Positions 10,928 through 15,990 of a stretch of DNA of 24,954 nt are shown piece after piece (position 1 is the first letter of the stretch; every line of letters starts with the position of its first letter). The stretch comes from a virus (lineage: Duplodnaviria; Caudoviricetes), in IMG/VR virus record IMGVR_UViG_3300011335_000621, positions 1 through 24,954 of that record. One strand, 5' to 3'. Under the pieces are notes generated by a model that was not told the DNA's origin, searched no databases, and was given only the letters and a program-made list of their open reading frames with translations. The translations under genes were made by a program, and so were the position numbers.

Positions 10928-11134
10928 ATGCTAAAACTAACCTTAAAAGAAAAAGAGGTCCTGCAACTCGTTGGCGAGTACAAAACCTCTAAAGAAATAG
11001 CATTACAACTAAAGCTAAGCCCACGAACAATCCAGTCTTATCTTGATAACATTTACTTTAAATTAAATGTCAAGGGACATGGCGCTCGCCACCAAGCATA
11101 TGCTGCAGCTTTAAGTGCTAACTTGCTTGATTAA
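10928..11134 (+). CDS. Stand-alone LuxR/GerE-type helix-turn-helix transcriptional regulator
   Basis: LTLKEKEVLQLVGEYKTSKEIALQLKLSPRTIQSYLDNIYFKLNV is a canonical LuxR C-terminal HTH. Confidence 0.9.
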   Translation: MLKLTLKEKEVLQLVGEYKTSKEIALQLKLSPRTIQSYLDNIYFKLNVKGHGARHQAYAAALSANLLD

Positions 11135-15094: not shown

Positions 15095-15123
15095 GAGTGT
15101 TAGTCTCCCATGTCATTGTACAC

Positions 15124-15156
15124 AAAAAAAAGACCAGCGTGACAGGACTGGTCTTT
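15124..15156 (-). terminator. Intrinsic terminator closing the tRNA-Asn/ncRNA transcript
   Basis: Minus strand AAAGACCAG-TCCTGTCACG-CTGGTC-TTTTTTTT. Confidence 0.8.
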
Positions 15157-15450
15157 CTCTTTTTGCAGAGTCCGAGTATGTCGGGCTAGAAGAGGAGGTT
15201 TCTAGACTTTCATAGCTAACCTTGCGGTTGCGGTTTAGTTATACCATTCTCATAGCACGACGTCGCTTTTCTTTTGCAAGAGCAACACGCTGTAACCAAC
15301 GAGCACCCGTAAGTACCTTACTAATCATAACGTTACGCCCTGTAGTAGAAAGAGTATAAAGGACCACAGGGGTAACGCTATCCCCAGTCGCTGCGCTCTG
15401 TTGCACTGTGCGTTTACGTACATGGCGCAATACAGACACGACATGGGGGA
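15124..15450 (-). ncRNA. Candidate structured ncRNA of about 325 nt directly 3' of tRNA-Asn
   Basis: A run of about 8 hairpins with G-U pairs favouring the minus strand, GCAA tetraloops and a terminator; no convincing CDS. Confidence 0.6.
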
Positions 15451-15522
15451 CTCCTACTGCTGGGATCGAACCAGCGACCATCCGGTTAACAGCCGGAGGC
15501 TCTACCGCTGAGCTAAGTAGGA
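15451..15522 (-). tRNA. tRNA-Asn (anticodon GTT), CCA not encoded
   Basis: TCCTACT/AGTAGGA acceptor stem, GCTC-AGCGGTA-GAGC D-arm, TCCGG-CTGTTAA-CCGGA anticodon arm, GCTGG-TTCGATC-CCAGC T-arm. Confidence 0.95.
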
Positions 15523-15538
15523 AGGTCTTCATGCCGTA

Positions 15539-15567
15539 AGTATATCTATACTGATGTAGTAGCGCAA
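15539..15567 (-). promoter_or_regulatory. Sigma70-type promoter for tRNA-Asn/ncRNA
   Basis: TTGCGC-N17-TATACT; the -10 overlaps a TACTTACGG box (15534-15542). Confidence 0.6.
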
Positions 15568-15576
15568 GGATATAGA

Positions 15577-15614
15577 TTTCTCCGTGGGGAGATGTGTTTC
15601 TCCGATGGGAGAAA
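15577..15614. repeat. Tandem palindromes TTTCTCCG-N3-GGAGA, 20-bp period
   Basis: TTTCTCCGTGGGGAGA (15577-15592) and TTTCTCCGATGGGAGAAA (15597-15614). Confidence 0.6.
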
Positions 15615-15654
15615 AGAAGAAAAAAGGAGATTGACTGTAGCTGTCGGAGTCCCC

Positions 15655-15732
15655 AACTGATTTTCGGAGGGGGGCAGGGGCTTGCCATGAGGGGGGCGGG
15701 GGGACGGGGGGTACCCCTCCTCCTAACTGATT
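15655..15732. other. G-tract block flanked by AACTGATT direct repeats (candidate genome end/packaging site or origin)
   Basis: G6,G4,G6,G6,G6 then TACCCC, located at the strand switch. Function is inferred. Confidence 0.45.
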
Positions 15733-15757
15733 ACTTACGGGCAGGTGATTCTATATG

Positions 15758-15990
15758 TTCACCACTACCGGATGGTACGGGTGAACTACGCCTGCTGAAA
15801 AGTGACTAGCGAACACTTTTCACCGGGCGTTTTGCTTATTCAAGGTTGCAATAAGTAGAATGTAAACCCAAACGATATATGAAAGGTATCGTACGGTTAC
15901 AAAGTCTACTGCATTGCATCGATTCTAGAATAGGTTATATACAATGATGACAATAGGGGAATCACACTATAGTGGTTCCCCTTTTTCTTT
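15758..15990 (+). ncRNA. Candidate structured ncRNA or leader of about 230 nt
   Basis: Four consecutive hairpins (15758-15785, 15788-15830, 15832-15859, 15861-15901), G-U pairs favouring plus, and a terminator. Confidence 0.55.
15955..15990 (+). terminator. Intrinsic terminator
   Basis: AGGGGAATCAC-ACTATA-GTGGTTCCCCT-TTTTCTTT. Confidence 0.8.

What the first reader, a model, noticed from the sequence alone, without database searches (positions are those of the whole stretch)
15124..15450. Highly structured ncRNA of about 325 nt co-transcribed behind tRNA-Asn
Seen on the minus strand, starting at the base after the tRNA discriminator: (1) a 70-nt irregular rod TCCCCCATGTCG...CGACTGGGGA (15381-15450); (2) an 18-bp stem TAGCGTTAC-CCCTGTGGT/ACTACAGGG-C-GTAACGTTA with a 16-nt pyrimidine-rich loop (15328-15380); (3) GTAAG-GTA-CTTAC; (4) a GCAA-capped stem (15254-15291); (5) AACC-GCAA-GGTT; (6) CTAGAA-ACCTCCTC-TTCTAG; (7) CCGA-CATAC-TCGG; (8) a terminator. 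G-U pairs and GNRA loops read correctly only on this strand. Established: large tRNA-adjacent phage ncRNAs exist (GOLLD, ROOL) but are longer. I do not recognise this as tmRNA, RNase P, SRP or 6S. Inference: a possibly undescribed phage ncRNA released by tRNA 3' processing.
Basis: partly seen in the sequence, partly recalled or inferred. Interest (0 to 1): 0.75.

Follow-up and report, generated by a model that had tools for sequence, protein, structure and literature searches.

The report
Modular phage RNAs mimicking ribosome tail
Behind a tRNA gene, an uncultured phage carries not one long RNA but a row of conserved RNA modules: two hairpin loops that match ribosome-binding sites and likely dampen translation of the phage's early genes, and a small hairpin cap shared by many unrelated viruses whose partner is unknown.

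Summary
The structure is real, but it is a composite rather than one 325-nt RNA. Relatives show four parts.

(A1) A hairpin with a fixed 22-nt cap (tip 15405-15426). It occurs once per genome in unrelated viruses on long covarying stems (30 of 36 distinct non-clade copies) and has no Rfam match.

(A2) A long stem with an open CUCUUUC loop (36 of 36 clade copies).

(ORF) A 29-aa ORF, probably the remnant of an HTH gene found intact in relatives.

(B) A ~105-nt RNA (15124-15231) with an ACCUCC loop and terminator. It also stands alone in other phages, and 31 of 33 upstream regions have a -10 box; the window's own box is degenerate.

The A2 and B loops resemble the 16S anti-Shine-Dalgarno tail. 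The complement AGAAAG is enriched at start codons of the replication/early arm (6/33 vs 0/36 gene families). Best guess: antisense RNAs masking early ribosome-binding sites, like NfeR1 or c4, but members of neither family. Loop-target covariation was not found, no transcript was seen, and the host is unknown. The unrecognised cap is the most novel part.

The parts
15539..15567 (-). Probable promoter of the tRNA-RNA unit: -10 TATACT 15539-15544, weak -35 TTGCGC 15562-15567, 17-nt spacer
   Evidence: Read; not reported by the consensus scan (-35 only 3/6). TATACT-TACGG is kept before the tRNA in several relatives. Inferred.
15534..15542 (-). TACTTACGG clade motif beside -10 boxes (operator- or activator-like)
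   Evidence: 7 copies in the window vs 0.42 expected; 7-8 per related genome, mostly abutting -10-like hexamers
15451..15522 (-). tRNA-Asn(GUU), no encoded CCA
   Evidence: 67.4 bits
15381..15450 (-). Module A1: rod whose base is conserved in the clade; the long middle was seen only in this window
15405..15426 (-). Conserved cap CC-CA-UGY-ANGNAAAN-GCW-CY-GG (slightly deviant copy here) found in unrelated viruses
   Evidence: model R2 hits 15399-15432 at 23.7 bits, best of 12 matches
15328..15380 (-). Module A2: 18-bp stem with an open 16-nt pyrimidine loop (15347-15362; core CUCUUUC 15348-15354); the 3' arm abuts the ORF start and, in many relatives, overlaps the module B promoter
   Evidence: long stem and open core in 36 of 36 clade sequences; unpaired probability 0.98 in the window
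15239..15328 (-). 29-aa ORF, probable remnant of a 69-80 aa HTH gene; holds first-reader hairpins 3-4 and one TACTTACGG copy (15307-15315)
   Evidence: Same position as intact HTH ORFs in L019, L035, L047, L061, L097. 8.9 bits against their profile, reached by 1 of 1994 scored shuffles. Pairwise BLASTP to L047 found nothing.
15238..15246 (-). Module B promoter position: TG-G-TATAAC, 6 nt before G1; degenerate here (C at -7)
   Evidence: 31 of 33 distinct upstream regions have TANNNT 5-7 nt before G1, background 5%; the two misses are the window and the L047/L061 type
15124..15231 (-). Module B, ~105-nt RNA: 5' bulged hairpin 15215-15231; irregular hairpin 15177-15214 with loop ACCUCCUC 15192-15199; linker with invariant CUCUGC 15161-15176; intrinsic terminator 15124-15156
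   Evidence: Alignment A1 of 33 sequences, pair counts, RNAalifold, one full-length copy per genome in 5 of 5, stand-alone copies

Best explanation
The stretch is a row of separable conserved RNA modules, and its two open pyrimidine loops likely base-pair with purine-rich ribosome-binding sites, mainly those of the phage's own early and replication genes, so that these genes would be translated less once the tRNA operon is switched on. Shown: conservation, covarying stems, open loops, modular rearrangement, a promoter signature for module B in relatives, and enrichment of the complement AGAAAG at early-arm starts. Inferred: transcription, timing, release of the 5' part by tRNA 3' processing, pairing in trans and its effect. 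The A1 cap is inferred to be a binding site for a host factor (a stabiliser or chaperone) that rides along.
For: A2 keeps an open CUUUC loop on a long stem of changing sequence in 36 of 36 clade copies. The ACCUCC loop is open (0.83-0.97) and equals the E. coli 16S 3' tail word. It recurs in loops of non-homologous hairpins at the same locus in L028, L044, L470 and L097. In 13 clade genomes AGAAAG lies within -25..+3 of candidate starts in 30 of 264 opposite-arm vs 9 of 356 same-arm ORFs; by family 6/33 vs 0/36 (p 0.009). Own-loop 7-mer matches were 7/33 vs 1/35 families (p 0.025), and GAAAG peaks 11-18 nt before the start. A2-loop hits numbered 75 (4 of them the antisense of the locus itself) vs 40 on average and 65 at most for 30 shuffled loops. 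The opposite arm holds Gam-like, replication-initiator and DnaB genes. In the window, 7 of 23 plus-arm starts vs 1 of 17 minus-arm starts carry a >=7-nt complement to one of the loops. Module B pairs: 40 cells with double changes vs 17.1 shuffled, 0/500. Precedent: aSD loops of NfeR1 (PMC10746234) and c4 loops (PMC5320573).
Against: No loop-target covariation: the own loop beat other genomes' loops in only 5 of 11 (A2) and 7 of 12 (B) genomes. B-loop hits did not exceed shuffles (27 vs mean 20.8, max 42) and linker hits were below them. GGAGG, the B-loop complement, leans to the same arm (43/356 vs 16/264). Some B copies lack the aSD word (L008, L006, L148 types). Start calls were crude, with up to six candidates per ORF; genomes are related; the early arm is A-rich, though interior AGAAAG is only 0.0006 per nt. 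RNAalifold did not predict the hairpin carrying the B loop; I named that structure after viewing the same sequences. The window's B promoter is degenerate. The host is unknown.
Confidence: 0.42

Rival explanations
1. Protein decoys: the modules are aptamer-like RNAs that titrate host proteins, for example anti-phage RNases or RNA-binding proteins that read the 16S tail. The A1 cap would be an orphan antitoxin-like decoy.
For: The cap is sequence-fixed on freely varying stems and single-copy in 10 of 10 genomes. These phages share almost no proteins and span GC 34-63%. Contexts differ: terminator tip, own TATAAT, behind capsid genes. Two more distant B-bearing contigs carry an above-threshold Rfam abiF hairpin within about 100 nt of B, and a third a sub-threshold one. 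abiF RNA neutralises its toxin by protein binding (PMC12373285, passages).
Against: No cellular counterpart was found: 3 pattern hits in GTDB, one of them inside a LysR-like gene; model R2 rang in 1 of 151 and 0 of 151 genomes (weak searches, 46 candidates scored per listed genome). abiF was not found in 14 of the 15 records searched for it. This does not explain the early-arm RBS bias.
Confidence: 0.2
2. The loops mask host mRNA ribosome-binding sites (selective host shut-off) rather than phage ones.
For: The loops copy the general aSD word and do not covary with phage RBSs.
Against: Most called phage genes are themselves SD-led (e.g. 50 of 85 in G005), so a broad block would not spare the phage. 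The host is unknown, so targets were not tested.
Confidence: 0.13
3. One functional ~327-nt RNA released by tRNA 3' processing.
For: No terminator between tRNA and 15124; 15 of 46 clade arrangements are tRNA-A1-A2-B in a compact row; the window's internal promoter is degenerate.
Against: Modules are lost, separated by ORFs or stand alone; no conserved pairing between modules was seen; the middle is an ORF remnant.
Confidence: 0.1
4. A1-A2 is a cis leader that controls translation of the HTH ORF, and B is an unrelated sRNA.
For: The A2 3' arm covers the purine run just before the ORF start; outside the clade the cap is sometimes followed by an SD-sequestering hairpin.
Against: A2 stem and loop persist where no ORF follows (24 of the 46 arrangements have B directly behind A2); cap contexts vary.
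Confidence: 0.07
5. Module B's linker pairs with the 16S rRNA 5' end (nt 8-16) and hinders 30S maturation.
For: The best R1 hit in 7 kb of E. coli RNA genes is antisense to this site (15.4 bits, rough E 0.003); 5 of 9 linker columns pair in 38 of 38 sequences.
Against: Profile score 7.97 vs 7.87 for the next site; duplex energy rank 50 of 1272; two columns pair in only 23-24 of 38. Found after the fact, and the host 16S is unknown.
Confidence: 0.04

Closest known systems
alpha-r14 / NfeR1 sRNAs of Alphaproteobacteria
   Same: Anti-Shine-Dalgarno words shown in open loops on stems of variable sequence; proposed RBS occlusion (PMC10746234, passages).
   Different: Phage-borne; two different loops, not three identical CCUCCUCCC loops; no Rfam match; extra 5' bulged hairpin, linker and cap.
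c4 antisense RNA of phages P1/P7
   Same: Phage RNA whose loops pair with the phage's own ribosome-binding regions and which is cut from a longer precursor (PMC5320573, passages).
   Different: No Rfam C4 match; no three-stem C4 fold; processing here would follow a real tRNA 3' end; no long specific target found.
abiF RNA (Rfam RF03085; RCd22 antitoxin)
   Same: Small hairpin with conserved tip acting by protein binding; orphan copies lie near module B in some distant relatives.
   Different: The A1 cap has another sequence and loop plan, no abiF hit in the window, and no shared toxin gene.
Theta (HDV-like) ribozymes
   Same: Phage RNAs starting at a tRNA 3' end (PMC10879173, passages).
   Different: Starts with U, not G1; no HDV-like fold found; adjacency is optional.

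Membership tests
alpha-r14/NfeR1 | Three hairpins each with an identical CCUCCUCCC loop | tested here: not met
   Loops are CUCUUUC and ACCUCCUC; no Rfam hit
alpha-r14/NfeR1 | aSD word unpaired on a variable stem | tested here: met
alpha-r14/NfeR1 | Represses targets by pairing at the RBS | not testable with these tools
   Only complementarity statistics
c4 antisense RNA | Match to the Rfam C4 model / three-stem fold | tested here: not met
c4 antisense RNA | Loops complementary to the phage's own RBS regions | tested here: inconclusive
   Enrichment for A2, none over shuffles for B, no covariation
theta / HDV-like ribozyme | G1 at the tRNA 3' end; nested pseudoknot with J4/2 cytosine | tested here: not met
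   First base U; 0 hits with my own loose descriptor, not the published one and not run on a known positive
abiF RNA | Rfam RF03085 match and an adjacent AbiF-like gene | tested here: not met
   No hit in the window; neighbours have no such family
tmRNA, RNase P, SRP, 6S, GOLLD, ROOL | Match to their covariance models / ARAGORN tmRNA call | tested here: not met

The most novel reading that the evidence does not exclude
The 22-nt cap is a portable RNA decoy that unrelated viruses graft onto any stable stem to bind and neutralise one conserved host protein, such as an anti-phage RNase. This clade bundles it with ribosome-tail mimics into an RNA-only counter-defence and switching cassette behind its tRNA.
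Probability: 0.2. Interest if true: 0.85.

Novelty: new variant of a known kind. Interest (0 to 1): 0.58.

Why it matters
It adds RNA families that Rfam lacks and suggests an RNA-based early-to-late translation switch in an environmental phage clade. The cap is the more striking part: a fixed 22-nt motif kept once per genome by viruses that share almost no proteins points to a common host partner. It is small enough to find by a simple pull-down.

Tried and rejected
Rfam on the window and on 40 homologue loci: nothing for any module. Annotated phage collection: no record covered the element; the 40 listed of 922 matches were the tRNA. Related-locus search with the 201-aa neighbour: no relatives.

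Expression: one RNA run was listed (share 0.05) and its contigs do not cover 15124-15404; this says nothing either way.

Host: not identified. I had no handle on candidate host phyla, so host RNAs and host targets were not tested.

Global host shut-off sparing leaderless phage genes: rejected, most phage genes are SD-led. Cap as a mimic of an rRNA, RNase P or tmRNA hairpin: best score 10.9 bits, E 1, on E. coli genes. Cap as a coding motif: it is mostly intergenic, and some copies read ATG-TAA. A shared phage protein partner: none. Theta ribozyme. The 13-nt complement between the 5' end and 15102-15114 is window-only (0 of 32 relatives). Recalled likenesses (lambda boxB, 16S h31 and h45, anticodon loops, an RNase P word in the rod) were untested or unsupported. 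One search's codon-model start calls were poor and are superseded. Of the seven new loci only L225 was a true B copy.

Literature: searches showed no description of these motifs. In Fremin et al. (PMC10690425; passages) three supplementary files were not searched and three were unreadable, so overlap with its 8495 candidates is open.

Full report
Setting. The window is a 25-kb linear virus record of a tailed phage: portal, large terminase, SSB, dUTPase and thymidylate synthase lie on the minus strand, small unknown genes on the plus strand. No close cultured relative was found. Complete relatives are about 66 kb. The host was not identified.

Observation. Rfam and ARAGORN find only the tRNAs.

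Homologues. A tRNA-anchored pattern gave 44 viral loci, a cap pattern 89 and a pattern for the 5' hairpin of the 3' part 57, some of them chance. Relatives carry shorter versions made of the same blocks in different combinations. One search listed 51 distinct arrangements; I dropped 5 that come from unrelated phages. Of the remaining 46, 30 are tRNA-adjacent (15 compact A1-A2-B, 5 with B far off behind an insert, 7 without B nearby, 3 without A2) and 16 are not. Adjacency is inflated by the tRNA-anchored search.

Module A1. The conserved part is a 22-nt cap: two C-G pairs, a 2x2 internal loop, three pairs and an 8-nt loop ANGNAAAN. A looser pattern gave 100 viral hits: 67 distinct, 36 outside this clade, and 30 of these 36 sit on long outer stems of unrelated sequence (at least 6 extra pairs, shuffle p<=0.05). 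On 36 rows chosen for having outer pairs, 101 cells show double changes against 36.5 shuffled (the pre-selection inflates this). One cap pair alternates C-G and U-G (23 and 13), which fits RNA on this strand. The metagenome scan returned 120 more loci, 59 of 80 distinct contexts being new. The cap is single-copy in 10 of 10 records, in phages of GC 34-63% that share almost no proteins. Contexts include terminator tips, a position just behind TATAAT, and the 3' side of capsid-like and other genes. GTDB gave 3 pattern hits, near my own chance estimate of about 4. One can form the hairpin but lies in frame inside a LysR-like gene. The model rang in 1 of 151 and 0 of 151 sampled genomes, in weak searches. 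In the window the cap is slightly deviant and sits on a longer rod.

Module A2. All 36 distinct clade copies fold into a long, nearly perfect stem of changing sequence, with the CUUUC core unpaired (probability >=0.96).

The ORF. Five relatives examined have a 69-80 aa ORF at this position; the four scanned match HTH families. The window's 29 aa align to the C-terminal half (8.9 bits; 1 of 1994 shuffles as high), although pairwise BLASTP found nothing. So it is probably a remnant. Hairpins 3-4 lie in it and the stretch folds no better than chance (z -0.89).

Module B. Thirty-three aligned sequences share a 5' hairpin with a bulged A, an irregular hairpin, an invariant CUCUGC linker and a terminator. 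RNAalifold supports the first and last only. With my structure 90.2% of cells pair; 9 pairs show double changes (22/500 shuffles reach this) and 40 cells do (0/500); slid controls pair 35-46%. The structure was derived from these sequences. B stands alone in other phages and has one full-length copy in 5 of 5 genomes. A TANNNT hexamer lies 5-7 nt upstream in 31 of 33 distinct contexts against 5% background, mostly with TG at -15/-14; the window has TATAAC and is one of the two misses.

Mechanism. Both loops resemble the 16S tail (one search shows the E. coli tail; longer tails ending CUUUCU in other phyla are recalled). An ACCUCCU loop reappears in unrelated hairpins at the same locus. AGAAAG is found near starts of 30 of 264 opposite-arm and 9 of 356 same-arm ORFs, or 6/33 and 0/36 families, and that arm holds replication genes. 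A2-loop matches exceed shuffled loops. Against this, B-loop and linker matches do not exceed shuffles, GGAGG leans to the other arm, and loops do not covary with targets. The tRNA promoter carries a TACYTRCGG motif that also marks the SSB and tRNA-Leu promoter regions and that of a sigma-like regulator gene, which suggests a shared expression phase (inference). I therefore commit, at 0.42, to RBS masking of early genes. The main rival is a protein decoy, which is most attractive for the cap: orphan abiF hairpins lie beside B in distant relatives, but only 1 of 15 records searched had one. A 16S 5'-end pairing surfaced but ranked poorly. No reads cover the element.

Comparison. It works like NfeR1 (PMC10746234, passages) or c4 (PMC5320573, passages) but fails both membership tests. 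It is not a theta ribozyme (PMC10879173, passages) or abiF (PMC12373285, passages). Uncharacterised ncRNA candidates are common in lytic phages (PMC10914365, passages). Other windows of this scan hold similar aSD-loop notes; these are unchecked leads, not support, and they make that theme less rare. Nine literature searches showed no description of these motifs; the Fremin et al. alignments could not be searched.

Verdict. Real, conserved, composite. The aSD-loop RNAs are a new phage variant of a known kind; the cap is an unrecognised, widespread viral motif with no known partner. Interest 0.58.

Noticed in passing
window 10908(+), 11560, 12711, 13732, 15315, 15542 (-), 15732(+): TACYTRCGG occurs 7 times (0.42 expected), usually abutting -10 hexamers, including before a sigma-like/HTH regulator gene at 10928; probably a clade-specific operator or activator site.
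   Followed up: partly
L181 507-543(+), L148 875-911(-), L150 583-618(+): Rfam abiF hairpins (45.8, 44.6, 34.2 bits) near module B; I saw no abiF-like gene but did not search for one. Possible phage-borne antitoxin mimics.
   Followed up: partly
L146, L155, L163, L167 at 701; L148 and L181 upstream of module B: A sibling small RNA with the same 5' bulged hairpin, then AACAACAAC and a terminator, with its own -10 box.
   Followed up: no
L198 ~1400-1490; L196 ~1420-1490: Further short terminator-ended RNAs with C/U-rich seeds directly upstream of module B in ~83-kb phages.
   Followed up: no
window 15102-15114 vs 15440-15452: 13-nt complement between the element's 5' end and the RBS region of the next gene; window-only (0 of 32 relatives).
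   Followed up: yes
window 15570-15830: C-rich/G-rich tract and several hairpins between the divergent arms, where GC skew flips; part is conserved in relatives. Possibly an origin, packaging or control region.
   Followed up: no
L126/L346, L385: The cap lies in frame inside a basic-tailed ORF of small contigs yet keeps an outer stem (dual coding).
   Followed up: no
L010/L013/L017 upstream of tRNA-Asn: A tRNA-like insert of about 100 nt between the promoter and tRNA-Asn.
   Followed up: no
L284 ~405-522: In an unrelated phage the cap hairpin directly precedes a tRNA-Ser.
   Followed up: no
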